The notes below the pieces were generated by a model that was not told where the DNA came from, did no database searches, and worked only from the letters and a program-made list of their open reading frames with translations. A stretch of DNA of 64,000 nt from a virus, in IMG/VR virus record IMGVR_UViG_3300045988_039373, positions 22,795 through 86,794 of that record; one strand, 5' to 3'. Shown here in pieces: positions 8,425 to 62,458 of this stretch. The position numbers and the translations under genes were made by a program. Numbering within the stretch: the stretch's first letter is position 1; each line of letters starts with the position of its first letter.

Positions 8425-9006
8425 CTATCTTTTACTACCTCTACTTTCTTTGTTTTCATAACTGTTATTTAATATATTACGAATTACCCTATCACCAACT
8501 CCAAATCTCTTTCCTAGAACCCTTAATAAAGTTTTGTTTACTTTCCATTTAGTAAACCCTAATTGGATTAGTTCAGATAGTAATGTATTATAATAAGCTT
8601 TTACTTTAGGTATATCATTTAAGTTTAATTTACGATGTATATTATCCTTACCCATTACTGAAATCAGATTATTACCATCCCTGATAGATTGGTATACATT
8701 TTCTTTCTGGGTACCCCATTTTAGATTCTTATAATAATTATTATAAATATCGTTATCTAAGTGCATTACTACAGGTAAATTATTGGGGTTAGGTACATAA
8801 ACAGTAGCTACTAATCTGTGAACAAAAATCTTTGTAGACTTACCATCCCTATAAAGGGATACACTATAGTATTTGGGACGTTTCTTTGGTATTAGTGGGG
8901 TAAACTCATTACTTAATTTACCCCTACTTCCTCGGACATATCTTGAATATACGCTCCCAGTTTTAGAAACGTAGTATCCCATAAATCCTGGTATATTATC
9001 TTTCAT
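8425..9006 (-). CDS. HNH homing endonuclease (NUMOD4-like N-terminus + HNH_3-like core)
   Basis: IPGFMGYYVSKTGSVYS at the N-terminus and VMHLDNDIYNNYYKNLKWGTQKEN. Free-standing between the primase and helicase genes. Confidence 0.8.
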   Translation of the reverse strand: MKDNIPGFMGYYVSKTGSVYSRYVRGSRGKLSNEFTPLIPKKRPKYYSVSLYRDGKSTKIFVHRLVATVYVPNPNNLPVVMHLDNDIYNNYYKNLKWGTQKENVYQSIRDGNNLISVMGKDNIHRKLNLNDIPKVKAYYNTLLSELIQLGFTKWKVNKTLLRVLGKRFGVGDRVIRNILNNSYENKESRGSKR

Positions 9007-48627: not shown

Positions 48628-48689
48628 AATTCGGTGTATTAAAGTTTTTCAAATCGAAATAGTCGTACGCTTTAATGATACTATCTATC

Positions 48690-48710
48690 GGTAATCGCTA
48701 AGCGATTACC
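48690..48710. repeat. Perfect 10-bp inverted repeat GGTAATCGCT-a-AGCGATTACC
   Basis: Read directly in the intergenic region upstream of the packaging operon. Confidence 0.9.
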
Positions 48711-48736
48711 TTTATCGAACGAAGTGAGATAATATC

Positions 48737-48744
48737 CAAATATA
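48737..48744 (-). promoter_or_regulatory. Candidate -7 box (TATATTTG on the minus strand) upstream of the packaging/virion operon
   Basis: Exact TAnnTTTG match 110 nt upstream of the ATG at 48627. No good -33 TTTG. Confidence 0.35.
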
Positions 48745-48880
48745 CTACTTACGATATGATATATGAATAGCTATATATACGCAGATAAATATATAGATAT
48801 ATATACGTAGTATATTATATATCTATATATTTCAAGGTACCCCAGAAACTTATATATAAGACTTTATATATAAAGCTGAA
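48745..48880. repeat. AT-rich (TATATA)n-type low-complexity tract with repeated ATATATACG(C/T)AG
   Basis: CTATATATACGCAG at 48771-48784 and GATATATATACGTAG at 48796-48810. Also TATATAAGACTTTATATATAAAG. Confidence 0.7.
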
Positions 48881-48882
48881 AC

Positions 48883-53262: not shown

Positions 53263-54204
53263 TTAGATTGATACTGTTCCTCCTGCACTTGGTACTATAA
53301 ATGACCCCTCTGATATCCAGGTAGCACCCGATTTAGTATATACAGCTACTTTATCTCCAGTAGTACATTCTATTCGAGAACCAGGTTCTGAGTCATTGGC
53401 ATAGAATGGAATCTTCATAGTAGTAGTACTAGTTGCTGAGAGACCCTGTATATACATCTGATCTGAAGATGATGTATTCTGTGGCCTAGCTCCCCTGCCA
53501 AAGAGATAGTAGCCTGTACCTGTGGGCAATCCAGAGAGAGTGAATGTTGAAGCCTGTTGTGGCTTCTGAGTTACTGGTATACTAAGGTTAGCATCCCCAC
53601 AGGTTAAGAAGATATGCCCTGAACGGTTAGCTCCAGTTTGATTACTCGATAAAGCGGTCAGGGATAACATGTAATGGTTCTCAAGAGTATCCACTGGGGC
53701 AACGGATACTGAGCACCAATCGGGAGCATTACCCACATGGGGAGTTTCTGGCTTTTTAGACCCATCACTACCCTTTAAATAGGCCATCACAAGGATTTGA
53801 GCAGTATTATATTTATCACTACCTAAAGGCAATGTGTTTGAAACCATTTTTATGTATCCACTATAGGTTACACCAGCCTTCTGAGTTACTGTGAGATTGA
53901 TTTTGTTATTAGACCCATTTTGGGTAAATGTCAGAGTAGTAGACCTTGAGGACCCAGTATTTTTTGAATAGTTAATTTTTACATCTAAGTAACCATCTCC
54001 AACGGTAACTCCTCCCCAAATAGCCCAACTTACGGAGGCTGAGCCCAAAGTACAAGAGGGTGTAGAGGTTGAAACTACTTTGCCATTTACCAGTTTCCTT
54101 TTGAGGGAAGTGATACGGTAGGTTATAGTACCACCCTCTGAAGATACAGTATCTGTACCTGTATCTGTAATTGCACGTGCTAGTTTGAATAATGTTTCTT
54201 CCAT
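53263..54204 (-). CDS. BACON/Ig-like multi-domain protein (313 aa)
   Basis: SVSWAIWGG...NTGSSRSTTLTFTQNGSNNKINLTVTQKAG and APDWCSVSVAP...GANRSGHIFLTCGDANLSIPVTQKPQ. Confidence 0.6.
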   Translation of the reverse strand: MEETLFKLARAITDTGTDTVSSEGGTITYRITSLKRKLVNGKVVSTSTPSCTLGSASVSWAIWGGVTVGDGYLDVKINYSKNTGSSRSTTLTFTQNGSNNKINLTVTQKAGVTYSGYIKMVSNTLPLGSDKYNTAQILVMAYLKGSDGSKKPETPHVGNAPDWCSVSVAPVDTLENHYMLSLTALSSNQTGANRSGHIFLTCGDANLSIPVTQKPQQASTFTLSGLPTGTGYYLFGRGARPQNTSSSDQMYIQGLSATSTTTMKIPFYANDSEPGSRIECTTGDKVAVYTKSGATWISEGSFIVPSAGGTVSI

Positions 54205-54304
54205 ATCTTTATAAGTTTTTGGTTTATAGAAAGAACTTTGATATTGTAATCTACCAGAGGGATAATCCGAAGTCTATGATATTATATAATCAATATAAAG
54301 AATT

Positions 54305-54580
54305 ATGAGAAAGTATCAGTATCAGATTTACTACCATACAAGCAGAGGAAGGTACTTCATTAAGATTAGGTATTCCTTCCTGGGATTGGTGTTTTGGCTT
54401 ACACTTAGAGATAAGTATTCGAGTAATATAGAAACCTTCCTTGATAAGGATAAGGCAATTGAAAGGGCAGAAGATTATTTAAGATATTTATACCTAAAGA
54501 GAAAAAATAGTAGGGTGTTAAAGGTTACTGGGAGAATAGATATTACCAGTAGGTTAAAATCAGTGAGGGAGGATTATTAA
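54305..54580 (+). CDS. Hypothetical protein (91 aa)
   Basis: ATG verified. Confidence 0.5.
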   Translation: MRKYQYQIYYHTSRGRYFIKIRYSFLGLVFWLTLRDKYSSNIETFLDKDKAIERAEDYLRYLYLKRKNSRVLKVTGRIDITSRLKSVREDY

Positions 54581-54581
54581 G

Positions 54582-54848
54582 ATGGTGAAGGTTGAAACAA
54601 TTAGGGATGATAATGAAAAGAGGATTCTTAAATGCCAAGAAGATAATCGGATTTGGTATCAGATATGGATTACCCAATTGGATATGAATTGTATAGAAAG
54701 GTACTTTGATGGGTATGGTGAAGTTAAGAGGTGGTGGTTAAGGAATCTTCAACAGTATTATGTTTTCTTTTATGAGAAGAAAGGTGGTAAGGTTCGAGGA
54801 GTTCTTGGGAAAGATAGGACTAAGGATTTAATTCGTGCTATACTTTAA
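54582..54848 (+). CDS. Hypothetical protein (88 aa)
   Basis: ATG verified. Starts 1 nt after the upstream stop. Confidence 0.5.
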   Translation: MVKVETIRDDNEKRILKCQEDNRIWYQIWITQLDMNCIERYFDGYGEVKRWWLRNLQQYYVFFYEKKGGKVRGVLGKDRTKDLIRAIL

Positions 54849-54920
54849 TTAGTTGCCAGAGACCTAACATCCCTGGCTTCTTTGTGTGTTATGTGAGCAT
54901 GTGTGGTTGTGGGATATCTA

Positions 54921-54965
54921 GGTATGCCCTTAATACGAGGTGTCAAAATTTCCTGGTACTAAAAA
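54921..54965 (+). repeat. Direct repeat unit 1 (about 45 bp)
   Basis: GGTATGCCCTTAATACGAGGTGTCAAAATTTCCTGGTACTAAAAA. Confidence 0.75.
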
Positions 54966-54982
54966 TGTGTATTTGTCCTCAA

Positions 54983-55026
54983 GGTACCCCTTAATGTGAG
55001 GGTTTCGAAAGTTGTGGTACTAAAAG
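54983..55026 (+). repeat. Direct repeat unit 2 (about 44 bp, roughly 70% identical to unit 1)
   Basis: GGTACCCCTTAATGTGAGGGTTTCGAAAGTTGTGGTACTAAAAG. Confidence 0.75.
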
Positions 55027-55069
55027 GGGAGTACGGTTCCGTTAAATTTAACATTTAAAAATAAAAAGT

Positions 55070-55097
55070 AAGGGATAAACATTTTTATTTATCCCTT
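55070..55097 (-). terminator. Intrinsic terminator of the AT-rich cassette
   Basis: Perfect 10-bp stem AAGGGATAAA / TTTATCCCTT. On the minus strand it is followed by ACTTTTTATTTTT. Confidence 0.7.
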
Positions 55098-55104
55098 TGC
55101 TTTC

Positions 55105-55401
55105 TTAATTATCTACTAAATGATTATTTAAATTTTCTTTAAATTGTTCATTTAAACAATAACATAAGTATAGTAAAAAAGTTTTAAAAGAAAATTTTTT
55201 ATAAATTGTATATTCAACTTCATTTAAATAGTTCATGCTTATTTGTTCAATCAATAGAAATTGCTCTACATTAATTAATTGAAAAGTTTGCACGTCAATA
55301 ATAGTAGATATTATTCTATGATTTGACTTTAAAAGAATATAAACTACAAATAAAGCACTAACAAAAACAGCTAATAAGATAAAAAACAAAATTAATAACA
55401 T
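55105..55401 (-). CDS. Small membrane protein (98 aa) of the AT-rich island
   Basis: N-terminal TM helix LLILFFILLAVFVSALFVVYILL. ATG verified. Confidence 0.55.
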   Translation of the reverse strand: MLLILFFILLAVFVSALFVVYILLKSNHRIISTIIDVQTFQLINVEQFLLIEQISMNYLNEVEYTIYKKFSFKTFLLYLCYCLNEQFKENLNNHLVDN

Positions 55402-55418
55402 AATAATTTTATTTTTAT

Positions 55419-55446
55419 GATAGGGAGTAAAATTTTACTCCCTATC
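55419..55446. repeat. Perfect 28-bp palindrome GATAGGGAGTAAAATTTTACTCCCTATC between the two island genes
   Basis: Read directly. Could act as an attenuator/terminator hairpin or as an operator. Confidence 0.9.
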
Positions 55447-55455
55447 TGATTTTCT

Positions 55456-55866
55456 TTACTTCATTGATTTTTTCACGATTTCGAGACCTTTTATTAATAT
55501 CTCTTTCTTTTCTTCTTTAGTGTTTTCGCTTGCAATCGAAGAAAAGGAAAAATCATTTAAAACATAGACTTGTTTATAAAAGTCTATAAAACCCTCAATT
55601 AGTTTTTTATCTGCATTGTTTGCAATGGTTGAAAGAAAATTGAAAGTTACGTTTCTAAACTTTTTACGTAACGATTTGATTTGCTTTTCGTTTGCACCCT
55701 CAAAAAGTTCTTTTTTATAAATTTCTGTTTTTGTACCTAAAGAAGTTTTGAAAAGTCCTTGATTTTTTTCTTTTACAGACTTTAAAACGTCTAAAGCAAT
55801 TAAACTATTTGCTTTGCTGTTTGCACTTGCTTTTTCTACACTCACTTTATTAATTTGATTTTTCAT
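55456..55866 (-). CDS. Lys-rich hypothetical protein (136 aa) of the AT-rich island
   Basis: The track start at 55926 is TTG, and the first ATG is at 55866 (MKNQINKVSVEK...). No motif recognised. Confidence 0.55.
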   Translation of the reverse strand: MKNQINKVSVEKASANSKANSLIALDVLKSVKEKNQGLFKTSLGTKTEIYKKELFEGANEKQIKSLRKKFRNVTFNFLSTIANNADKKLIEGFIDFYKQVYVLNDFSFSSIASENTKEEKKEILIKGLEIVKKSMK

Positions 55867-55970
55867 AATAAAAACGCTTGAATATTTTATTATTATTATT
55901 TTATAACCTTTTTGATAGATATTCAAGACTTATTAAACTATCTAATAAGGTTTGTTTCATTTCTATATTG

Positions 55971-56001
55971 CAAATATAAGAACTATTTTTTAATCTACAA
56001 A
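55971..56001 (-). promoter_or_regulatory. Canonical Bacteroidota promoter P1 (TTTG-N19-TATATTTG)
   Basis: The rc reads TTTGtagattaaaaaatagttctTATATTTG. Confidence 0.7.
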
Positions 56002-56076
56002 ATTTTTAGAAAAATATTTTCTTAAAAAGTTTTAATTAAAAATTTATTCAAATATCGCTTTGTTTTTCTCACATTG

Positions 56077-56107
56077 CAAAGATACGAACTTTATTTTAAT
56101 CTACAAA
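56077..56107 (-). promoter_or_regulatory. Duplicated promoter P2 (TTTG-N19-TATCTTTG), 106 bp upstream of P1
   Basis: The rc reads TTTGtagattaaaataaagttcgTATCTTTG. The surrounding ~55 bp is an imperfect direct repeat of the P1 region. Confidence 0.6.
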
Positions 56108-56351
56108 CATTTTCAAGAAAAATTTTTGAGAAAATGAATAATTTTATTTTCAAAATTATTTTTGTGAAAAATTCATAAAATAGAAAATATTGTGCACCCT
56201 AAAAGGACTTAATATTTGCACTTAATTTTGGAGGTTCACAAGGGTAATCTTCGCACGCCTTGTAGTGGGCATATATGATATGTATAAGGATATTCCTATA
56301 TGGCCTATGCCTGTCCTCTAGGAAGTGTGTTATATACCTGTATATTGATAA

Positions 56352-56365
56352 GGCTATTAATGGAC
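56352..56365. promoter_or_regulatory. Dyad-symmetric site GGCTATTAATGGAC (family GGCCAT-WW-ATGG)
   Basis: Embedded in ATAAGGCTATTAATGGACTAAGGT. Confidence 0.5.
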
Positions 56366-56435
56366 TAAGGTGATAAAGAATTAAGGCCCTTAAGATATAT
56401 CCCTCTATAAAAACCCCTTAGTCCTAATTCTATAA

Positions 56436-56449
56436 GGCCATATATGGAC
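56436..56449. promoter_or_regulatory. Dyad-symmetric site GGCCATATATGGAC
   Basis: Embedded in ATAAGGCCATATATGGACTATGGT. The core CCATATATGG is a perfect palindrome. Confidence 0.5.
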
Positions 56450-56519
56450 TATGGTAAGCCTATGGGGAAATGGGTTTCATAGATTAGCCTATAAGGGCTT
56501 ACTAAGTTAGCGTAAGTAA

Positions 56520-56549
56520 AACCCAGATACCTTAGTTAGGCTCTGGGTT
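56520..56549 (-). terminator. Intrinsic terminator after gene 56556-56831
   Basis: The minus strand reads AACCCAGA-gcctaactaaggta-TCTGGGTT followed by TTAC. Confidence 0.65.
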
Positions 56550-56555
56550 AATATA

Positions 56556-56831
56556 TTAATCGAAGTATACCTGAAAGGTTATATACTTGATGTTGAAGGT
56601 AAAATCGGGTTCAATTTCCTCTGGGTCAGGGATTTCGGATGAGAATTCCATAAGGCAATCATCTGTGTTAAGGTAGATAGATATTTCCTTAGCTTTCGAT
56701 TGCATTAGTTCTGGCAATATCGAATCGAATTGTGAAAGTGAATTGGCAATGTAAGATGCCCATGGATAATCCCTAGCGTAATTTACTAAGGTAAGAATGA
56801 TGAGATTTGAAATTTGATTAAGAGCTTTCAT
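56556..56831 (-). CDS. Small acidic protein (91 aa)
   Basis: ATG verified. Lies between two hairpins. Confidence 0.55.
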   Translation of the reverse strand: MKALNQISNLIILTLVNYARDYPWASYIANSLSQFDSILPELMQSKAKEISIYLNTDDCLMEFSSEIPDPEEIEPDFTFNIKYITFQVYFD

Positions 56832-56855
56832 ATGTTTATATTTAATGTATTAATA

Positions 56856-56881
56856 AGGGGTACCCTGTTATGAGTACCCCT
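56856..56881 (-). terminator. Hairpin AGGGGTAC / GTACCCCT after gene 56894-57286
   Basis: 8-bp stem and 10-nt loop. Contains two GGTACC-type half-sites. Confidence 0.5.
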
Positions 56882-56893
56882 GGGATTAATGAT

Positions 56894-57286
56894 TTAGCAA
56901 GTGAAAGGAACTGTTACTGTGTAAAGGTTTTCGAATTCGTTTACCTTAGGTGCCTGACCAAAGCATGCCTCTGGGTCATAGGCAAAGGTATCCCGTAAGC
57001 ATTCAAGGCAAGTGATGCCAGCAGTATCATCGTCATCGAAATGTTCTGGGTCATTGATGGTAAAGGTTAATATGTGTACCCCAGCATCTTGGTTATCGAT
57101 AGTTTGGATTGATACTAGAGTTAAGTAATCAGGAATGATTGTGTTCTCCTGTAGTTCCTGTAAGTAAGGCTTAATGAAGTCTAGCATGCCTGATGGATAA
57201 GAAGGATAGGCATCAGGTGCAGCAATTAATGAAAGATTAATACTCTTTGCAAAATTAAAATCAGTTGTTAAAATACTTGTTTTCAT
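56894..57286 (-). CDS. Strongly acidic small protein (130 aa)
   Basis: About 21 Asp/Glu against about 5 Lys/Arg, including HFDDDDTAG. ATG verified. Confidence 0.6.
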   Translation of the reverse strand: MKTSILTTDFNFAKSINLSLIAAPDAYPSYPSGMLDFIKPYLQELQENTIIPDYLTLVSIQTIDNQDAGVHILTFTINDPEHFDDDDTAGITCLECLRDTFAYDPEACFGQAPKVNEFENLYTVTVPFTC

Positions 57287-57318
57287 ACGTCTATATTTAA
57301 TTAGTTATTATTACAATG

Positions 57319-57350
57319 CAAATATAAATATAATATATTATATATGCAAT
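57319..57350 (-). promoter_or_regulatory. Early-type promoter (ATTGCATAT...N...TATATTTGCAT)
   Basis: -7 box TATATTTG (rc of 57319-57326), and ATTG at rc 57347-57350. The ATG lies 33 nt downstream. Confidence 0.6.
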
Positions 57351-58057
57351 AACCTCAATTGCCTTCGTAGGTTATTAAGGGCCTTGAATTATATTTACCT
57401 TAGTCCTTGAGGCCATGAATGGAGATTGCCATTTACCTTCCCTACCTATAACCTATATTATATAATACCTAATGGTTCTTGGTAATCAAGGTACCCCTAA
57501 ATCACAAAATTGTCCTAGAATACAAAAGTTAATGCTAATATAAATACTAAGCAAATAAATTACAGAGTTACTAGGAATATTACCTAAATATGCCCCTTGA
57601 AGGCCTTAAATCCTATAAACCATTTAGCCCTAAAACCTAATATTTTAATTGCCCAATCACAAATCCGATTACCTTTCCCCAACCAATCTATTATATAATA
57701 GCTATATAAAATGGCTGCTCAGGCAATCGGATTTAGGGGCCATTAATGGTCGGATTTATTTGCCTTTTTAGGCCTTTTTGAGTTTGCCTTTAAAGTGTGT
57801 AGTAGAGCTATATGGTATAGTGGCTATATAGTGAGTTGAGTGGCTTTGTATAGTAGAGGGGTTATCACTTGCCTTGTTTGCCTAAATCCCCAAAACCCCC
57901 GGCGAGGTACCTTGATATATGTATTAGGTATTATTATATTAATAGATGGTATATTAGTTATAGAGGGGATAGGTAGATATTATATTATGTACCTTAGTTA
58001 GCGTTAGTATGATTTTGTTTTATTTTTGTGTTGGGTGGTGTGGGAGGTACCCGGTAT
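57351..58057. other. About 700-bp non-coding tract dense in dyad-symmetric and iterated motifs (candidate origin or regulatory hub)
   Basis: No ORF of 60 aa or more in any frame, and hand-checked ATG-initiated minus-strand ORFs are at most 13 aa. Contains GGCCATGAATGGAG (57411-57424), GGCCATTAATGGTC (57738-57751), the inverted repeat AAATCCGATT (57661-57670) / AATCGGATTT (57725-57734), the palindrome CTATTATATAATAG (57688-57701), and 7 copies of TTGCC. Confidence 0.5.
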
Positions 58058-58261
58058 TTATTCCAGGTACCTTGATATGTGGGATAATGTTATCAGGGCT
58101 ATGGTGTATATTATTAGGGTTAGTAGCTGTGAGATGATATATCTTATTTTGTTTGTTGGGTGGGTATGCTTGTGGGCTTGGTAGATATCCTCATTTCGTA
58201 TTAGGATGAGGATAGTTCCTACGGATAGTATTATTCGGATTATGTGATAGAGGATGTTCAT
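58058..58261 (-). CDS. Small two-TM membrane protein (67 aa), last gene of the early operon
   Basis: ATG verified. ILSVGTILILI and LLTLIIYTIALITL. Confidence 0.5.
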   Translation of the reverse strand: MNILYHIIRIILSVGTILILIRNEDIYQAHKHTHPTNKIRYIISQLLTLIIYTIALITLSHISRYLE

Positions 58262-58506
58262 GGTAGTGATATTATATCGATTATGGTTATATCTGTTAGG
58301 TTTACTTTAAGGATCTCTCTTAGCTTTAGCCTTATGTAGGTACTATGTTTATGCCATGGGTTTATTTCTTGTTTGGGGTAGCGGAGGTAGGTATTAAGTT
58401 CCTCGGTTCTGTACACTACGTTCATTTCTTCGCAGAAGCCTTCGGTAGTCCCAGGTAATGGTCCCGGGACTTCGAATGATACTAAGAATTTACCTAATGT
58501 TAGCAT
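58258..58506 (-). CDS. Hypothetical early protein (82 aa)
   Basis: ATG verified. Overlapping stop/start. Confidence 0.5.
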   Translation of the reverse strand: MLTLGKFLVSFEVPGPLPGTTEGFCEEMNVVYRTEELNTYLRYPKQEINPWHKHSTYIRLKLREILKVNLTDITIIDIISLP

Positions 58507-58509
58507 AGT

Positions 58510-58857
58510 TTATAGTTCGTTGGTTAGTATTCTTATATCGGTAAATTGATTCATATATTCCTCTTCTGAGGATATGTCAAGGCATTTGCATGCTATGTAG
58601 TGGCCGTACATTGATATACCTGTTTGATAGCCTTGGTCTTCGTTTAGGAAGTTAGCTAATGGTATCTTGTCTACTGAGCATATCTTCTGATGACCTGGTA
58701 AGGTTTCTGAATCCGTATATCCTACAAAGTTATAAGTATCAGTGTTATCGGTCAGGATAGCAAATATCTCGATTAGCCAGTTAAAGTCCTCTAGAGGTAC
58801 TCTGTCTAACCATTCCCATCCGATTGGGTATTCGTTTATTGTTATTGTTGGTTTCAT
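58510..58857 (-). CDS. Hypothetical acidic early protein (115 aa)
   Basis: ATG verified. Confidence 0.55.
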   Translation of the reverse strand: MKPTITINEYPIGWEWLDRVPLEDFNWLIEIFAILTDNTDTYNFVGYTDSETLPGHQKICSVDKIPLANFLNEDQGYQTGISMYGHYIACKCLDISSEEEYMNQFTDIRILTNEL

Positions 58858-58861
58858 GATG

Positions 58862-59188
58862 TTAATTGAGTTGAGGGTTAAACATTTGTTTTGGTTGGCC
58901 TAATAGGCAGCAATGAGGATAACCTGCTTCATCGAGGATTCCCAGTATAAGATATCGATTGGTATCTCTGGGAATTTCGAAATAGAAAGCTGGTTTCATG
59001 TCGCCATCTATGAATGTAAAAACTATCTGAGTGTTTTCTAGTAACCCATTTAGTTGTACATGAGAAAGGTAGTTATAAATAGCTTCCCTTTGATTTCTTG
59101 GGTTTTTACCCCATGAGATGAGCATATCGTCATACCAATTTGGATTATCGCATAGCTTTTTAAGTTGTTGTTGAATATACGGTGTCAT
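58862..59188 (-). CDS. Hypothetical early protein (108 aa)
   Basis: ATG verified. Confidence 0.55.
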   Translation of the reverse strand: MTPYIQQQLKKLCDNPNWYDDMLISWGKNPRNQREAIYNYLSHVQLNGLLENTQIVFTFIDGDMKPAFYFEIPRDTNRYLILGILDEAGYPHCCLLGQPKQMFNPQLN

Positions 59189-59478
59189 GATTTGAAGTAA
59201 TAATATAAGTCCTCGATTAGTTTATCCTGTTCTTCCCATATAGTATCTGATACTACGTATTCTGATACGAAATAGTTATAGAAAGGCCCAAATAGTATTT
59301 TTAATACTATGTCCTTGAGTTCGATATTGAGTTGTTCCTCTTCTTCGGTAGAACTGGGTTTGATTGCCTGAAGTTCTGCCTTATAGGATGCCGTTACGGC
59401 ATCCTTTAGGGTTTGAATATATTCTGGGTTAGTTTCCTTGAGAATACTTAATTGTGATTTGAGTTCTTTACTTATCAT
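59185..59478 (-). CDS. Hypothetical acidic early protein (97 aa)
   Basis: ATG verified. Confidence 0.55.
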   Translation of the reverse strand: MISKELKSQLSILKETNPEYIQTLKDAVTASYKAELQAIKPSSTEEEEQLNIELKDIVLKILFGPFYNYFVSEYVVSDTIWEEQDKLIEDLYYYFKS

Positions 59479-59830
59479 GGGGCTTAGCGATTATGGATAT
59501 GAATCCCTGTGGATATTGAGTATAGAATAATTGGTAGTTCCCTGTGGGCAAGAAGACTTGCATTATATTTGCAAGTAAGGGATAGATTTTCCATTGGTTT
59601 TCCTCTAGAAACTTGTTCCAGTCTTCAGATTCTTCTGGATAATTCCCAGATAGTTGGATATGGTACTGTTCCTGGTCAGCAATAAATAGGTTAGTTACTA
59701 CCTGTATTTCATCTGATTCCTTTTTGTATTGGGTGATTGGATACCAGATGCCTTCGGTTTTCCATTTATTAAGTTGGAACAGAGACATGCCCTGTTCCAG
59801 TACGTTGAGTAATTTATATAAGTTTACCAT
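59468..59830 (-). CDS. Hypothetical early protein (120 aa)
   Basis: ATG verified. Confidence 0.55.
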   Translation of the reverse strand: MVNLYKLLNVLEQGMSLFQLNKWKTEGIWYPITQYKKESDEIQVVTNLFIADQEQYHIQLSGNYPEESEDWNKFLEENQWKIYPLLANIMQVFLPTGNYQLFYTQYPQGFISIIAKPHDK

Positions 59831-59835
59831 AGTGA

Positions 59836-60357
59836 TTATTTATTTAGTTGGTTAAATAATTCTGATACTGCAAGTTGTTGGAAGATTTCTGTTTCCCTGT
59901 GGTCTGATTCCCATTTTTCGATAGCATTGTAGATATTGGTATATTGGGATATCATGTCCTCATCTTGTTCATCGTCTTGGATAAATTCCCGGAGATGTTT
60001 TTTGAGTCCGGTTATGATATAATCCTGATGTTCAGGGATTAATTGAAGAACTCCGAATAGGATAGCCTCTACCTGTGAGGGTGAATAATCGTAATATTGG
60101 TCGTCGGCACCCTTTGTTAAGTCCATGTGAGAAATAATGTTTTCCCTGAGATTTTCGAAGAGAACTTCCTCTGAAGCATATGTGATGATATATCCTGAGA
60201 TATAAGCAGCAAAAAGTTCATCCTCTAAGTCGATTGAGTAAACTTGGATATTGGTAGCTTCCTTGTTAATGAGAAGACCATCGGAGTAATCATAAGTATA
60301 AATGGGGTGGGAAGCAAGCAGTTCCCGGATGGCCTCTAAATTTTTTAATTCTTTCAT
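59836..60357 (-). CDS. Strongly acidic early protein (173 aa)
   Basis: ATG verified. Asp/Glu-rich, e.g. FIQDDEQDEDMISQ. Confidence 0.6.
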   Translation of the reverse strand: MKELKNLEAIRELLASHPIYTYDYSDGLLINKEATNIQVYSIDLEDELFAAYISGYIITYASEEVLFENLRENIISHMDLTKGADDQYYDYSPSQVEAILFGVLQLIPEHQDYIITGLKKHLREFIQDDEQDEDMISQYTNIYNAIEKWESDHRETEIFQQLAVSELFNQLNK

Positions 60358-60399
60358 AACGTGTCTATATTAAAATTATTTGAGAAATATTTCTCATTG

Positions 60400-60407
60400 C
60401 AAATATA
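60400..60407 (-). promoter_or_regulatory. -7 box TATATTTG (minus strand) for the 60357-58058 operon
   Basis: CATTGCAAATATAC on the plus strand. The ATG lies 43 nt downstream. Confidence 0.55.
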
Positions 60408-60465
60408 CAAAATTATTTCTAAACTTGTTTTTATAACTACTTTTATTTTTATAAATAGGGAGGTT

Positions 60466-60492
60466 CTGGGAGGTGTTTTGAGTGCCTCCCAG
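60466..60492 (-). terminator. Hairpin CTGGGAGG / CCTCCCAG after gene 60502-60873
   Basis: 8-bp perfect stem and 11-nt loop. Confidence 0.55.
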
Positions 60493-60501
60493 AGGGTTTT
60501 G

Positions 60502-60873
60502 TTAATATTGCCCTGTCATAGTAATGATAATGAAAAGGGATTCATCATTGAAATGTACCTGGATAGTATCTCCATATGAGTTTGACATGTAATGATGATT
60601 AGGGTTAAGTTCTTTTAATGGGTGATGTTCATCCCAATGAGAATTAATGAATTCTATCACGTATTGTTCAAAAGCATCGGATTCTCTGCAGTAGGTTTCT
60701 ACCTTTTCGTCATCGTCTATGGGATACTCCCGGAATTGGAGATTGAGAGTTCCCATATATGATTCATCCGGATTTGAGATTTCGTTAACTGATTGAGCAG
60801 TGTAACCAAAAGCATCAAGAGTTCCATCAAAGTAACCCATAATGTGATTTGAGATTTCGTTAATAGTTGTCAT
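60502..60873 (-). CDS. Acidic small early protein (123 aa)
   Basis: ATG verified. YPIDDDEKVETY. Confidence 0.55.
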   Translation of the reverse strand: MTTINEISNHIMGYFDGTLDAFGYTAQSVNEISNPDESYMGTLNLQFREYPIDDDEKVETYCRESDAFEQYVIEFINSHWDEHHPLKELNPNHHYMSNSYGDTIQVHFNDESLFIIITMTGQY

Positions 60874-60936
60874 AAGAAATAAGTTTTGTGACCCCGTTCA
60901 AGGTCGGTTAATAATTATATTTATTTTTCTCTTATG

Positions 60937-60968
60937 CAAATATAGAAATAATATTTTAAATATGCAAT
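60937..60968 (-). promoter_or_regulatory. Early-type promoter (ATTGCATAT-N-TATATTTGCAT)
   Basis: -7 box at rc 60937-60944, and ATTG at rc 60965-60968. Confidence 0.6.
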
Positions 60969-60973
60969 AATTA

Positions 60974-61007
60974 AGGGAGCCCAGATGTTAGTGTTTCTGA
61001 ACTCCCT
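60974..61007 (-). terminator. Hairpin AGGGAG...CTCCCT after gene 61033-61416
   Basis: 6-bp outer stem plus a partial inner stem. Confidence 0.4.
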
Positions 61008-61032
61008 GAGGTATATTAACTGATTGGGGGGA

Positions 61033-61416
61033 TTAGTATAATTCATCGGCCAGCATTGGTTCCTTGGGCTTATTTAATTTCTCTTTAGAACGTCTTGTAG
61101 CCCAATTCTCGTAGGGTTTGTAACTGAAGCTACGTGTTGTTTCATCGTATGCAGCATATACCATTTGTTTACGGGATATTCTCCTCCCGTAAGTTTTCTT
61201 AAGATTAGCAAACCAATCTAGATACTCCTGTAAAGAGTTAAAGATTTCTTTGTTCCCGTCTAAATCATTTTTAGGACGGGTTTTCCATGTTGCTTCTATA
61301 TAGCATTGATGTAGGGTGATTGAAATAAAGTATCGGCACCAACTACCACCAAAGATAGTGCCCGTGGAGAATTCTATCTCCCGGGCAACTAATGGACTAA
61401 CGTTATACTTTGTCAT
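61033..61416 (-). CDS. Hypothetical basic protein (127 aa)
   Basis: ATG verified. Confidence 0.55.
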   Translation of the reverse strand: MTKYNVSPLVAREIEFSTGTIFGGSWCRYFISITLHQCYIEATWKTRPKNDLDGNKEIFNSLQEYLDWFANLKKTYGRRISRKQMVYAAYDETTRSFSYKPYENWATRRSKEKLNKPKEPMLADELY

Positions 61417-61799
61417 GCGATTGAGAAATTAAGTTGGAAAATCCAGTTGTTTCTATCGAGTTGATTGAATGATATGAACCTCCCATCGTTATCTGTGAAT
61501 TCGTTCATGAATTGAACTGCAGCAGATGCTAATTGTCCCTTATAGGGATTAGTATCGGCAGTTATCACGGATTCGAAAATGAAAGAATAATAGGTAGTAT
61601 CATAAATTTGTACCTGGTTTATATCCAAGCAATTGAGTTTGTAATCATCCTCTAGTTTGATTAAGAGTCCCATTAGAAGATTAAGAAGATTACCCTGTTC
61701 ATCAGAGTCAAGTTCAAATGTAGATTTCTTTTCTAAGAAATTGCGAACTACCTTAGTTAGTTCGTCTGCCTGATTGTAAGTTACTGAGTTCGTTTTCAT
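61413..61799 (-). CDS. Hypothetical acidic early protein (128 aa)
   Basis: The track start at 61829 is a TTG inside the -7 box. The real ATG is at 61799 (MKTNSVTYNQ...). Confidence 0.55.
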   Translation of the reverse strand: MKTNSVTYNQADELTKVVRNFLEKKSTFELDSDEQGNLLNLLMGLLIKLEDDYKLNCLDINQVQIYDTTYYSFIFESVITADTNPYKGQLASAAVQFMNEFTDNDGRFISFNQLDRNNWIFQLNFSIA

Positions 61800-61835
61800 A
61801 TTTTTGTCTATTTTAAAATTGATATGCAAATATAA
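61797..61835 (-). repeat. 39-bp exact repeat, copy A (promoter -7 box + 5'UTR + ATG)
   Basis: CATATTTTTGTCTATTTTAAAATTGATATGCAAATATAA, identical to 63919-63957. Confidence 0.95.
61827..61834 (-). promoter_or_regulatory. -7 box TATATTTG (minus strand)
   Basis: Part of the 39-bp exact repeat shared with 63919-63957. Confidence 0.6.
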
Positions 61836-61904
61836 GCATTTTTATTTTTATAGAAAAATATATCTAATTTATTTTTAGGGAGGCTGAGGATGTGTACACG
61901 CTAT

Positions 61905-61931
61905 GAAAGGCAGTCTAATCCACTGCCTTTC
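61905..61931 (-). terminator. Hairpin GAAAGGCAGT / ACTGCCTTTC after gene 61937-62458
   Basis: Perfect 10-bp stem and 7-nt loop. Confidence 0.6.
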
Positions 61932-61936
61932 AATTA

Positions 61937-62458
61937 TTAAGGTAATTGGGGAGTTAGCAAATATAGAGCCTCTCTTATAATTGAACTCTCCATAGGTTCT
62001 AAAGAGGGTTCCTTGTTCATTAGTCCACCTTTCTTCTTTTCGTTTTCAAATACTTCATGTATGGCTTGCTTTAGTTTAGTAGCTAATACCTCTGATAACT
62101 CCTGAGATTTAAGAGAGATAAGTAACCCTTTTCGTATTTTCTCAATATCTTGGTCATTCTTAGTAATGGGTTTTGCTTCTACTAATTCTTGTATACCCGA
62201 GGAATATTCATCTAACCGTTCATATCCCAAATGTTGTAGGTCATTAATGAAGATACTGAATTCATCGTAAGTAAGTCTAGTATCAAAACCTACCCCATGG
62301 TATAGTTGTACTAAAGGTGTAAGGATTCTCCTCAATGTATTGAAATCCTTTAGGTGGTCTAATTCTATTTCGGACCTAATAGGTACTTTATATACCTTTT
62401 CACCCTTCAGTACTACTAACAGAATCATTAGTCTTGGTGGTAGTCTTTTCTCGTTCAT
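61937..62458 (-). CDS. Hypothetical early protein (about 173 aa; start uncertain)
   Basis: The track start at 62464 is TTG. In-frame ATGs lie at 62458 and 62428, and both overlap the upstream gene end at 62400. Confidence 0.5.
   Translation of the reverse strand: MNEKRLPPRLMILLVVLKGEKVYKVPIRSEIELDHLKDFNTLRRILTPLVQLYHGVGFDTRLTYDEFSIFINDLQHLGYERLDEYSSGIQELVEAKPITKNDQDIEKIRKGLLISLKSQELSEVLATKLKQAIHEVFENEKKKGGLMNKEPSLEPMESSIIREALYLLTPQLP

What the first reader, a model, noticed from the sequence alone, without database searches (positions are those of the whole stretch)
57351..58057. About 700-bp gene-free tract packed with dyads and iterons: candidate replication origin, centromere-like site or regulatory RNA locus
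A gap of this size is exceptional in a genome this densely packed. The tract holds two more members of the GGCCAT-WW-ATGG site family (57411-57424 and 57738-57751). It has seven TTGCC pentamers and five (A/G)GGCC(A/T)T sites. It also has three imperfect ~16-nt direct repeats (GCTATATGGTATAGTG / GCTATATAGTGAGTTGAGTG / GCTTTGTATAGTAGAG) at about 57817-57860. A G/T-rich run (TGTGTTGGGTGGTGTGGGAGG) lies at 58026-58047 and resembles one at 54893-54912. There is no host-type promoter box inside. The tract lies downstream of the early operon, so it may be transcribed as a long 3' UTR or ncRNA.
Basis: partly seen in the sequence, partly recalled or inferred. Interest (0 to 1): 0.65.

Follow-up and report, generated by a model that had tools for sequence, protein, structure and literature searches.

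The report
Conserved non-coding control tract in gut phage
The largest gene-free stretch of this 87-kb Bacteroidota gut phage is real non-coding DNA that more than 100 related phages keep more faithfully than the genes beside it. It is most likely a protein-binding DNA site (a replication origin or an early-gene control platform), not a structured RNA, but its function is untested.

Summary
Window 57287-58057 is the longest non-coding gap of a complete 86.8-kb, 'Flandersviridae'-like myovirus. It has no ORF on either strand under any stop-codon reading.

The tract is under selection:
- Its core (58044-57770) is 95.7% identical in 65 of 68 relatives. Third codon positions of the upstream genes are only 78-84% identical.
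- A more distant clade keeps a ~1-kb tract with the same order of modules.
- The genes on both flanks are swapped among relatives while the tract stays.

The modules, read on the - strand, are:
- a C-rich, G-poor tail;
- an AT-rich spacer of variable length between two AAGGTAC sites;
- a ~150-bp near-invariant core that includes CGGGGGTTTT;
- oriented AAGGCA/AAGGCC and GGATTT words, GGCCAT-NN-ATGG dyads and TATTATATAATA palindromes;
- a host-type early promoter that drives a variable acidic-protein gene.

A structured RNA is not supported: no Rfam hit, consensus folding near 0 kcal/mol, and the local inverted repeat is broken in relatives. A centromere is not supported, because the genome has no ParA or ParB. 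No DnaA boxes or regular iterons occur.

My best guess is a DNA-level protein-binding platform, most likely a transcription-activated origin (about 0.35). Early-promoter control is the close rival.

The parts
58045..58074 (-). Hairpin AGGTACCTGG-AATAAATA-CCGGGTACCT that overlaps the stop codon of the 67-aa ORF. It is a likely terminator in this genome only.
   Evidence: searches (I20) show the sequence and the fold. It is present in only about 8 of 29 relatives; the others have an unrelated C-rich sequence without a hairpin.
57915..58050 (-). C-rich, G-poor untranslated tail (rut-like composition) after the upstream early operon.
   Evidence: The - strand has A 61, C 35, G 4, T 36 over 136 nt. 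Skew is +0.59 to +0.81. The property is kept in relatives and in the distant clade.
57914..57985 (.). AT-rich spacer (72 bp, 21% GC) bracketed by two AAGGTAC(C) sites. Its sequence and length vary but its composition is conserved. It is a candidate DNA-unwinding element.
   Evidence: In 63 relatives it is 64-111 bp long, with 41 distinct variants and GC always 19-27%. The indels are not multiples of 3.
57770..57918 (-). Near-invariant core on the - strand.
   Evidence: Most columns are at least 95% conserved in 69 sequences. 58044-57770 is 95.7% identical in 65 of 68 relatives. CGGGGGTnTT is in 66 of 69 and TATAGCTCT in 64 of 69. Both are kept in the distant clade. The pattern is found in more than 106 IMG/VR contigs.
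57718..57792 (-). Array of oriented AAGGCA/AAGGCC words and the distal dyad GGCCATTAATGG (57738-57749), flanked by two TCGGATTT sites 23 bp apart (57727, 57750).
   Evidence: (D6). AAGGCAA averages 3.8 copies per tract against 0.9 on the other strand. The exact distal dyad is in 47 of 69 relatives.
57688..57701 (.). AT palindrome CTATTATATAATAG. This is an indel hot spot: most relatives carry an extra 164-310 bp here, made of the same word families.
   Evidence: TATTATATAATA occurs only twice in the genome, both times in the tract. It is in 68 of 69 relatives, at a mean of 1.74 copies. The insertion is seen. 54 of 69 relatives are longer than the window's form.
57560..57680 (-). G-rich (on the - strand) array of GGATTT, TAGG and AAGGCC words in the orientation opposite to the AAATCC sites left of the palindrome. 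GC skew is locally inverted.
   Evidence: The same AAATCC ... AT palindrome ... GGATTT arrangement occurs in the distant clade, with six GGATTT sites and some 23- and 46-bp spacings.
57511..57560 (-). Degenerate copy of the early-promoter cassette (AATTTATTTGCTTAG ... TTCTAGGACAATTTTGTG). It is a relic or weak second promoter 233 bp upstream of the real one.
   Evidence: Repeats D4 and D7 both have 233-bp spacing. It lacks the -33 TTG and has one mismatch in the -7 box. TTCTAGGACA is conserved in both clades.
57411..57497 (.). Promoter-proximal module: TCAAGGTACCCC (57486-57497), palindrome TATTATATAATA (57456-57467) and dyad GGCCATGAATGG (57411-57422).
   Evidence: The proximal dyad CCATT(C/A)ATGGCC is present in 69 of 69 relatives.
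57319..57350 (-). Host-type (Bacteroidota) early promoter ATTGCATAT-N-TATATTTGCAT. It drives the gene slot 57286->56894.
   Evidence: It matches TTG-N18-24-TAnnTTTG. The same cassette occurs at 60967 and 63979. TATATTTGCA is kept in 61 of 69 relatives.
56894..57286 (-). 130-aa strongly acidic ORFan. It occupies a hypervariable gene slot behind the tract.
   Evidence: No PHROG or Pfam hit. In relatives the slot holds at least four unrelated acidic ORF families of 89, 130, 91 and 168 aa.

Best explanation
The tract is a conserved, modular, non-coding cis-acting DNA region of a virulent-looking, 'Flandersviridae'-like Bacteroidota myovirus. It acts as DNA that assembles proteins, not as a folded RNA.

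My single best guess is that it is the phage's replication origin of the transcription-activated type, as in T7 and T4. The proposed steps are:
1. Early transcription from the upstream operon runs into a C-rich, G-poor tail.
2. The AT-rich spacer, which varies in length but keeps its composition, and the TATTATATAATA palindromes provide the easily melted DNA.
3. The invariant core with the CGGGGGTTTTGGGG run, and the oriented AAGGCA/AAGGCC, AAGGTAC(C) and AAATCC/GGATTT words on either side, are binding or R-loop-stabilising sites for an unidentified phage or host factor.
4. That factor lets the DnaB/DnaG/PolA replisome load.

The promoter-proximal 250 bp also controls the host-type early promoter that expresses a variable acidic-protein gene.

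Shown: the tract is non-coding, its motifs are enriched, it is under purifying selection, its architecture is conserved in a second clade, and it has no conserved RNA fold. Inferred: protein binding, unwinding and origin function.
For: - It is the longest non-coding gap and has the most internal repeats of any gap: 16 repeated 10-mers.
- No coding potential (distant clade).
- The core is 95.7% identical in 65 of 68 relatives, against 78-84% at third codon positions of the genes just upstream.
- Within the distant clade about 700 bp are nearly invariant, although the downstream gene differs between contigs.
- Both flanks are replaced among relatives while the tract is never lost. The minimum length is 819 bp in 69 sequences, and four gene families occupy the downstream slot.
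- The AT-rich spacer keeps 19-27% GC across 41 sequence variants of 64-111 bp.
- AAATCC sites on one side and GGATTT sites on the other flank an AT palindrome in both clades. The wider arms differ (AAATCCGA/TCGGATTT against AAATCAC/GTGATTT), and spacings of 23 and 46 bp occur.
- The words are strongly strand-oriented, as iterons are.
- The replisome is DnaB + DnaG + PolA with no recognisable initiator, which fits transcription- or R-loop-primed initiation.
- From established knowledge: origins of lactococcal and S. thermophilus phages are likewise highly conserved, repeat-rich, non-coding stretches in the early region.
Against: - There is no functional data.
- No DnaA box occurs in 69 relatives.
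- The repeats are short (5-14 nt) and irregularly spaced, not 17-22-bp iterons.
- The tract is about 47 kb from the replication genes.
- The cumulative GC-skew minimum is at about 51-54 kb, not at the tract.
- The same word lexicon also occurs in a second tract (56200-56555), and between tandem early promoters of the more distant phage MT121964, which lacks the invariant core. That fits promoter control at least as well.
- No promoter lies inside the tract.
- The AT-rich spacer could simply reflect neutral drift in a 36% GC genome.
Confidence: 0.35

Rival explanations
1. The tract is an early-gene control platform. It is a composite intergenic region made of a terminator zone for the upstream operon (rut-like C-rich tail, plus a hairpin in some strains), followed by a long upstream regulatory region. 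In that region a phage or host DNA-binding protein occupies the GGCCAT-NN-ATGG dyads and the AAGGCM, GGATTT and GGTACC words. This binding times or shuts off the host-type promoter that expresses a swappable acidic (anti-defence-like) gene.
For: - It lies directly upstream of a canonical early promoter.
- The proximal dyad CCATT(C/A)ATGGCC, 60-75 bp upstream of the -33 element, is present in 69 of 69 relatives.
- A degenerate second promoter copy lies 233 bp upstream.
- The same lexicon occurs in the next tract, upstream of other early promoters, and between two tandem early promoters in MT121964.
- The - strand 58050-57915 is C 26% and G 3%, which is rut-like.
- The slot behind the promoter holds four unrelated acidic ORF families. 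This resembles conserved-promoter, variable-cargo counter-defence loci.
Against: - The most conserved part (57770-57918) lies 420-570 bp from the promoter. That is far for a bacterial-type promoter.
- Other promoters with the same cassette (60967, 63979) work from about 150-bp intergenic regions without such arrays.
- The distal dyad is intact in only 47 of 69 relatives.
- No DNA-binding protein is recognisable among the neighbouring ORFans.
- A regulator of one accessory gene would not be expected to be better conserved than every gene around it.
Confidence: 0.3
2. The tract works at the RNA level without a conserved fold. It is a long 3' tail or leader made by read-through from the upstream operon or from the weak second promoter. 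Its many oriented AAGG/UAGG words would act as a sponge or binding platform for an RNA-binding protein. Alternatively, + strand transcripts starting near the two GGTACCTTGATAT sites could act as antisense RNA against the early operon.
For: - All word families are strongly strand-biased: AAGGCAA 3.8 against 0.9, ACTATAC 2.0 against 0, TTCAAGG 2.2 against 0 copies per tract.
- Most relatives lack a terminator hairpin after the upstream gene, so read-through is likely.
- The single-sequence fold of the - strand is slightly more stable than shuffles, z = -2.3 with only 20 shuffles.
Against: - No Rfam match at E <= 1.
- Consensus folding energy is about 0 and covariation about 0 on both strands across 69 relatives.
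- The 14-bp inverted repeat around the palindrome is broken in recombinant haplotypes.
- The + strand z is -1.0.
- No promoter lies inside the tract.
- No phage RNA polymerase or sigma factor was detected (the RNA polymerase control was uninformative).
- Insertions of 164-310 bp are tolerated in the middle.
Confidence: 0.12
3. The tract is a packaging, terminus or entry-related site: a pac/cos-type site, a terminal-repeat boundary, or an injection-stop or leader region at the end of the genome that enters the cell first, followed by a first-expressed acidic anti-restriction-like gene. The model is the T7 left end with ocr, or the T5 first-step-transfer region.
For: - The junctions of 47 full-length circularly assembled relatives cluster at window 53.4-58.5 kb: 15 of 47 against about 3 expected.
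- The gene behind the tract is a small, very acidic protein.
- The tract is repeat- and palindrome-rich.
Against: - When mapped exactly, the contig ends fall at scattered positions from 55411 to 58463 and share no base. That pattern is expected from assembly breaks in a mosaic, AT-rich zone.
- The 55-bp terminal repeat of this record is of assembly k-mer size.
- A better pac candidate lies directly upstream of the terminase genes at 48628-48882, with 12 repeated 10-mers and a palindrome.
- The tract is 9.5 kb from terL.
Confidence: 0.1
4. The tract is a plasmid-style partition (centromere-like) site that supports episomal carriage of the phage.
For: - Clustered short repeats and dyads are present.
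- The literature notes that these phages assemble as closed circles and might persist as episomes (PMC8008677).
Against: - No ParB_N or ParA-type (AAA_31) domain occurs anywhere in the genome, while the controls ring.
- PMC8008677 also reports no partition genes.
- The tract matches no plasmid in PLSDB.
- The core pattern was not found in any Bacteroidota isolate genome among 185,579 species representatives. The only hits were 3 stray contigs.
Confidence: 0.03

Closest known systems
Non-coding origins of replication of lactococcal and Streptococcus thermophilus phages (c2, sk1, Sfi21-type 'ori/per' regions). This comparison is from my own knowledge, not tested here.
   Same: These are several-hundred-bp non-coding stretches in the early region. 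They are dense in short direct and inverted repeats and AT-rich segments, more conserved than the surrounding mosaic genes, and often need local transcription.
   Different: There is no sequence similarity. The host phylum, promoter type and replisome differ. Here the repeats are shorter and less regular, and no replication or 'per' phenotype has been measured.
T7 primary origin and T4 oriF/oriG (transcription- or R-loop-primed origins)
   Same: The replisome has DnaB-like helicase, primase and PolA-type polymerase without a dedicated initiator. An AT-rich, meltable segment lies downstream of early transcription. A G-run on the non-template strand could stabilise an RNA-DNA hybrid.
   Different: No promoter lies directly in front of the AT-rich segment. 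Transcription would have to come from read-through of the upstream operon. T7 and T4 origins are much shorter (about 100-200 bp).
Conserved-promoter, variable-cargo early loci (the T7 left-end leader with ocr; the promoter-early stem-loop cassettes of T4-type hyperplastic regions)
   Same: A constant non-coding and promoter module precedes small, acidic, rapidly exchanged early genes. The promoter cassette is repeated through the early region.
   Different: Those modules are 50-400 bp long and consist mainly of promoters and stem-loops. This tract is 0.8-1.3 kb, has only one canonical promoter, and has a 150-bp invariant core unrelated to promoters.
Rho-dependent terminator (rut) regions
   Same: The 136 nt after the upstream stop codon are C 26% and G 3% and unstructured. 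This is the classic C>G signature.
   Different: This covers only the distal fifth of the tract. The upstream coding RNA is also C>G, though less extremely. Termination was not measured.

Membership tests
Iteron-type replication origin (plasmid / lambda-like) | Three or more direct repeats of about 17-22 bp at regular spacing of about 22 bp | tested here: not met
   Only 5-14-nt words recur. Spacing is irregular apart from one 23-bp TCGGATTT pair here and 23- and 46-bp steps in the distant clade.
Iteron-type replication origin (plasmid / lambda-like) | Adjacent AT-rich DNA-unwinding element | tested here: met
   A 72-bp spacer at 21% GC keeps its composition (19-27% GC) in 63 relatives despite 41 sequence and length variants. 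Two TATTATATAATA palindromes are also present.
Iteron-type replication origin (plasmid / lambda-like) | DnaA boxes (TTATCCACA, up to 1 mismatch) | tested here: not met
   None in the tract in any of 69 relatives.
Iteron-type replication origin (plasmid / lambda-like) | Cognate initiator gene at or next to the origin | tested here: inconclusive
   The neighbouring ORFs have no PHROG or Pfam match. The replication module has helicase, primase and PolA but no recognisable initiator.
Iteron-type replication origin (plasmid / lambda-like) | Replication initiates there (marker frequency, 2D gels, autonomous or phage-dependent replication) | not testable with these tools
No cultured isolate is known to me.
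Transcription-activated phage origin (T7 / T4 oriF-oriG type) | Promoter directly upstream of a meltable segment, giving a persistent RNA-DNA hybrid | tested here: inconclusive
   No host-type promoter lies inside. Read-through from the upstream operon is plausible because most relatives lack a terminator hairpin. A conserved G-run, CGGGGGTnTT, is in 66 of 69 relatives.
Partition centromere (parS / parC type) | Cognate ParA-type ATPase and ParB-type adaptor encoded by the replicon | tested here: not met
   PF02195 and PF13614 give no match at E <= 1 in the whole genome, while the controls ring.
Structured non-coding RNA | Match to a described RNA family | tested here: not met
   cmscan of 54000-60000 against Rfam 15 at E <= 1 found only a spurious miRNA hit outside the tract. 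No tRNA or tmRNA.
Structured non-coding RNA | Conserved secondary structure with compensatory changes | tested here: not met
   Sliding RNAalifold over 69 relatives gave 0 to -9 kcal/mol per 120 columns on both strands, with covariation terms near 0. The region around the palindrome gave -4.65 kcal/mol, and recombinant haplotypes break the 14-bp stem. The hairpin at 58045-58074 is absent from most relatives.
Operator array for a dimeric DNA-binding protein | Conserved dyad-symmetric sites near a promoter | tested here: inconclusive
   The proximal dyad CCATT(C/A)ATGGCC is in 69 of 69 relatives. The distal dyad is intact in 47 of 69. Dyads of the same type occur in the distant clade. No binding protein has been identified.
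Rho-dependent terminator (rut) | About 80 nt or more of C-rich, G-poor, unstructured untranslated RNA | tested here: met
   The - strand 58050-57915 has C 35 and G 4 of 136 nt, and no consensus structure. Termination itself is not testable here.
'Flandersviridae' (candidate gut phage family, PMC8008677) - identity of the genome | About 85-kb genome; contractile-tail structural module; DnaB, DnaG and PolA module; about 20-kb ORFan locus; Bacteroides/Parabacteroides hosts | tested here: inconclusive
   The genome is 86.8 kb. It has TerL, MCP, protease, sheath, baseplate, DnaB, primase and PolA, ORFan early genes and Bacteroidota-type promoters. All of this fits the description, but no named member was compared directly, and no host was determined.

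The most novel reading that the evidence does not exclude
The tract is a new kind of dual-purpose phage element. It would be an origin or nucleoprotein hub physically fused to the promoter of a hypervariable counter-defence gene slot, so that the same protein-DNA assembly (on AAGGCM, GGATTT and GGTACC words around meltable AT palindromes) couples the start of replication to expression of whichever acidic anti-defence gene the strain carries. It would also serve as the constant homology arm that lets these genes be swapped between strains.
Probability: 0.1. Interest if true: 0.7.

Novelty: new member of a known kind. Interest (0 to 1): 0.5.

Why it matters
'Flandersviridae'-like phages are among the most commonly detected viruses of the human gut. 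They are uncultured, and about 20 kb of their genome is unannotated (PMC8008677). This tract is the most strongly constrained non-coding DNA in that dark region. It sits in front of a gene slot that different strains fill with different small acidic proteins.

If it is the origin, it gives a handle for building replicons or measuring in-situ replication of these phages. If it is a control platform, it marks the regulatory centre of their early, probably anti-defence, programme.

In either case it is a compact, testable target of about 0.8 kb, with defined invariant blocks. It is also a useful diagnostic signature: one 24-base pattern recovered more than 106 contigs.

Tried and rejected
- Hidden gene under another genetic code: all six frames carry TAA, TAG and TGA stops. 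The 53-aa + strand ORF (57840-58001) crosses the spacer, whose indels break the frame.
- Known RNA family, tRNA or tmRNA: none.
- Conserved RNA fold: none.
- 'Nested dyad' cruciform (AAATCCGATT ... AATCGGATTT): specific to this haplotype. Most relatives have mismatched arms or 164-310 bp inserted between them.
- DnaA-dependent origin: no boxes.
- Tandem-unit structure: only a faint, ancient 233-bp periodicity, and no long repeats in the short or long forms.
- Fixed physical terminus: contig ends cluster regionally but at scattered bases.
- T7/SP6-like promoter resemblance (CACTATAG words in the core): no T7-like RNA polymerase or sigma region 2 was detected. I treat it as coincidence, although the RNA polymerase control was uninformative.
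- Shared late-promoter motif linking the tract to virion operons: none found.
- Similarity to plasmids or GenBank phages at the DNA level: none.
- Link between the GGCC clusters and the phage C5-methyltransferase: no solved homologue from which to infer specificity.
- Other large 'gaps' as better origin candidates: the 443-bp gap beside polA is really an HNH-like reading frame. The 176-bp AT-rich gap beside dnaB holds divergent promoters and remains an alternative.
Full report
**What the genome is.** The window is bases 22795-86794 of a complete 86,794-bp IMG/VR virus record whose ends overlap by 55 bp.
- It encodes TerL, a prohead protease, the major head protein, tail sheath, baseplate wedge and tape measure.
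- It also encodes DnaB helicase, DnaG-type primase and a second helicase and PolA.
- Almost all genes lie on the - strand.
- Early promoters are of the Bacteroidota TTG-N19-TAnnTTTG type.
- This fits the published description of the candidate family 'Flandersviridae': median 85.2 kb, a contractile tail, DnaB/DnaG/PolA, a ~20-kb ORFan locus and Bacteroides/Parabacteroides hosts (PMC8008677). I did not compare it with a named member.
- None of 20 small ORFs around the tract matches PHROGs or Pfam.

**Check of the observation.** The gap between called genes is 57287-58057 (771 bp). It is the longest truly non-coding gap in the genome.
- All six frames are closed by TAA, TAG and TGA alike.
TTGCC is about 4x enriched (7 on +, 1 on -, against 2.0 expected, p = 0.001). 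RGGCCWT is about 20x enriched (5 on +, 1 on -, against 0.29, p = 6e-7). GGCCATNNATGG has 2 of its 3 genome copies here. GGCC is 5 against 0.72, and GGTACC 3 against 0.28.
- The three direct repeats are at 57807-57858 and the G/T run at 58027-58047.
- No complete host-type promoter lies inside. The promoter at 57349-57319 (- strand) sits just outside the left edge.

**Conservation.** The two flanking proteins recovered 115 related loci in IMG/VR.
- In BLAST, the tract is often better conserved than the genes beside it. In L060, for example, the two upstream genes are 71% and 82% identical, while the two tract blocks are 96% and 92%.
- Over 68 non-identical relatives, the block 58044-57770 is 95.7% identical in 65. 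Third codon positions of the three upstream genes are 78-84% identical.
- A more distant clade, whose neighbouring protein is about 65% identical, keeps a ~1-kb ORF-free tract at the same place. Within that clade about 700 bp are almost invariant in eight contigs, although the gene behind the promoter differs.
- Both flanks are exchangeable. The junction with the upstream gene has two unrelated forms, and half of the relatives carry an extra small hydrophobic ORF there. The slot behind the promoter holds at least four unrelated, strongly acidic ORF families.
- The tract itself is never missing (819-1313 bp). The window carries a short form.

**Anatomy, read on the - strand, the direction of local transcription.**
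1. 58074-58045: a GGTACC-armed hairpin over the upstream stop codon, present in only a minority of relatives.
2. 58050-57915: a tail with C 26% and G 3%.
3. 57985-57914: an AT-rich spacer between two AAGGTAC(C) sites. Its length (64-111 bp) and sequence (41 variants) vary, but its GC stays at 19-27%.
4. 57918-57770: a nearly invariant core. It contains ATATCAAGGTACCT, CGGGGGTTTTGGGG and the CTACTATAC / CACTATAGCTCT-type repeats. The G-run and TATAGCTCT are shared with the distant clade.
5. 57792-57718: oriented AAGGCA/AAGGCC words, and the dyad GGCCATTAATGG between two TCGGATTT sites 23 bp apart.
6. 57701-57688: the palindrome CTATTATATAATAG. Most relatives carry an extra 164-310 bp of similar words here.
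7. 57680-57560: GGATTT, TAGG and AAGGCC words with locally inverted GC skew.
8. 57560-57511: a degenerate copy of the early-promoter cassette, 233 bp from the real one.
9. 57497-57411: TCAAGGTACCCC, a second TATTATATAATA, and the dyad GGCCATGAATGG, which is present in 69 of 69 relatives.
10. 57350-57319: the promoter.

The word families are strongly strand-oriented. AAATCC-type sites lie on one side of the AT palindrome and GGATTT-type sites on the other in both clades.

**What it is not.**
- Not coding.
- Not a known RNA.
- Not a conserved RNA fold. Sliding consensus folding of 69 relatives gives 0 to -9 kcal/mol per 120 columns on either strand, with negligible covariation. The single-sequence z-scores are -2.3 and -1.0. 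The 14-bp inverted repeat around the palindrome is a feature of this haplotype and is broken in recombinants.
- Not a centromere. ParA and ParB domains are absent from the genome although the controls ring.
- Not a DnaA-type origin.
- Not a classical iteron array.
- Not a fixed genome end. Junctions of circular assemblies cluster in the 53-58.5-kb zone (15 of 47) but at scattered bases. I attribute this to assembly breaks in a mosaic, AT-rich region.
- No plasmid or GenBank phage shares the sequence.
- Among species-representative prokaryote genomes, only three stray contigs carry the core pattern.

**How it most likely works.** The pattern has five features: selection stronger than on neighbouring genes, independence from the flanking cargo, composition-conserved AT-rich segments, oriented short words and a few dyads, and tolerance of module gain and loss. 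This pattern points to DNA that assembles proteins.
- I rank a transcription-activated replication origin first (0.35). It is the only large repeat-rich non-coding element. It is never lost. It has a plausible unwinding element and a conserved G-run. The replisome lacks a recognisable initiator.
- The close rival (0.30) is an early-gene control platform: a terminator zone plus a long upstream regulatory region for the promoter of the variable acidic-protein slot. Three things favour it. The same lexicon occurs in the neighbouring tract. It also occurs between tandem early promoters of the more distant phage MT121964, which lacks the invariant core. The promoter-proximal dyad is universal.
- The two roles could coexist.
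- An unstructured RNA role (0.12), a packaging or entry role (0.10) and a centromere (0.03) follow.

**Limits.** All functional statements are inference. Conservation estimates come from local alignments in a recombining region. The deep alignment between the two clades is reliable only in blocks.

Noticed in passing
window 56894-57286, and the homologous slot in L038, L011, L052 and L067: The gene slot directly behind the conserved tract and promoter holds at least four unrelated, strongly acidic small ORF families in different relatives: 89 aa in 23 genomes, 130 aa in 14, 91 aa in 9 and 168 aa in 2. This looks like a hypervariable early (possibly counter-defence or DNA-mimic) cassette.
   Followed up: partly
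window about 54000-62000: The + strand GC skew is positive (+0.07 to +0.29 per kb) across this early region although the genes remain on the - strand. The rest of the genome has negative skew with the same gene orientation. Early mRNAs are therefore C>G and A>T. Inside this region, 57250-57750 is locally inverted.
   Followed up: partly
window 56200-56555: A second conserved non-coding tract, one gene pair away, uses the same word lexicon: CCATATATGGCC, TTAAGGGCCTTAA, TAGGC and ACGCTAACTTAG. The distant clade and MT121964 also have a second tract rich in AAGGCC.
   Followed up: partly
window 53400-58500, mapped from 47 full-length IMG/VR relatives: The end-to-start junctions of circularly assembled relatives cluster here (15 of 47) but map to scattered bases. 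This probably reflects assembly breaks caused by strain mosaicism and AT-rich DNA.
   Followed up: yes
genome C1:19781-20300 (window -3013 to -2494), - strand: What looked like a 443-bp gap beside polA is an open HNH-endonuclease-like reading frame (...NGYVIVSIRDTNGYRYTYNIHQLVALVYVPNPNNHKYVCHKDNIRTHNHYKNLYWGT...) without an early ATG. A second HNH gene lies between the primase and dnaB genes (window 8425-9006).
   Followed up: partly
L118 and L119 (NZ_BMWE01000050.1 and NZ_BMVB01000105.1, filed as Streptomyces) and L120 (Eubacteriales MAG contig): Tiny contigs (507-4739 bp) in unrelated genome assemblies carry the phage tract's core pattern. They are most likely contamination or mis-binning.
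   Followed up: partly
L227/L228 (MT121964.1, human faeces, 75.5 kb): This almost unannotated GenBank phage record has a TerL 74% identical at the protein level. Its early region spans the record's ends. It has two tandem early promoters about 190 bp apart, separated by ATTTAGGGTACCCTAAAT, TAAGGTAGGG and AAGGCC words. It has no CGGGGGTnTT core.
   Followed up: partly
Sigma70 region 2 (PF04542) gave no match anywhere in the genome at E <= 1, and PHROGs gave nothing for this ORF.
   Followed up: partly
window 48628-48882: This AT-rich, palindrome- and TATATA-repeat-rich gap lies directly upstream of the terminase genes. It has 12 repeated 10-mers and contains one of the five TCAAGGTACC copies. 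It is a better pac/cos candidate than the tract studied here.
   Followed up: no
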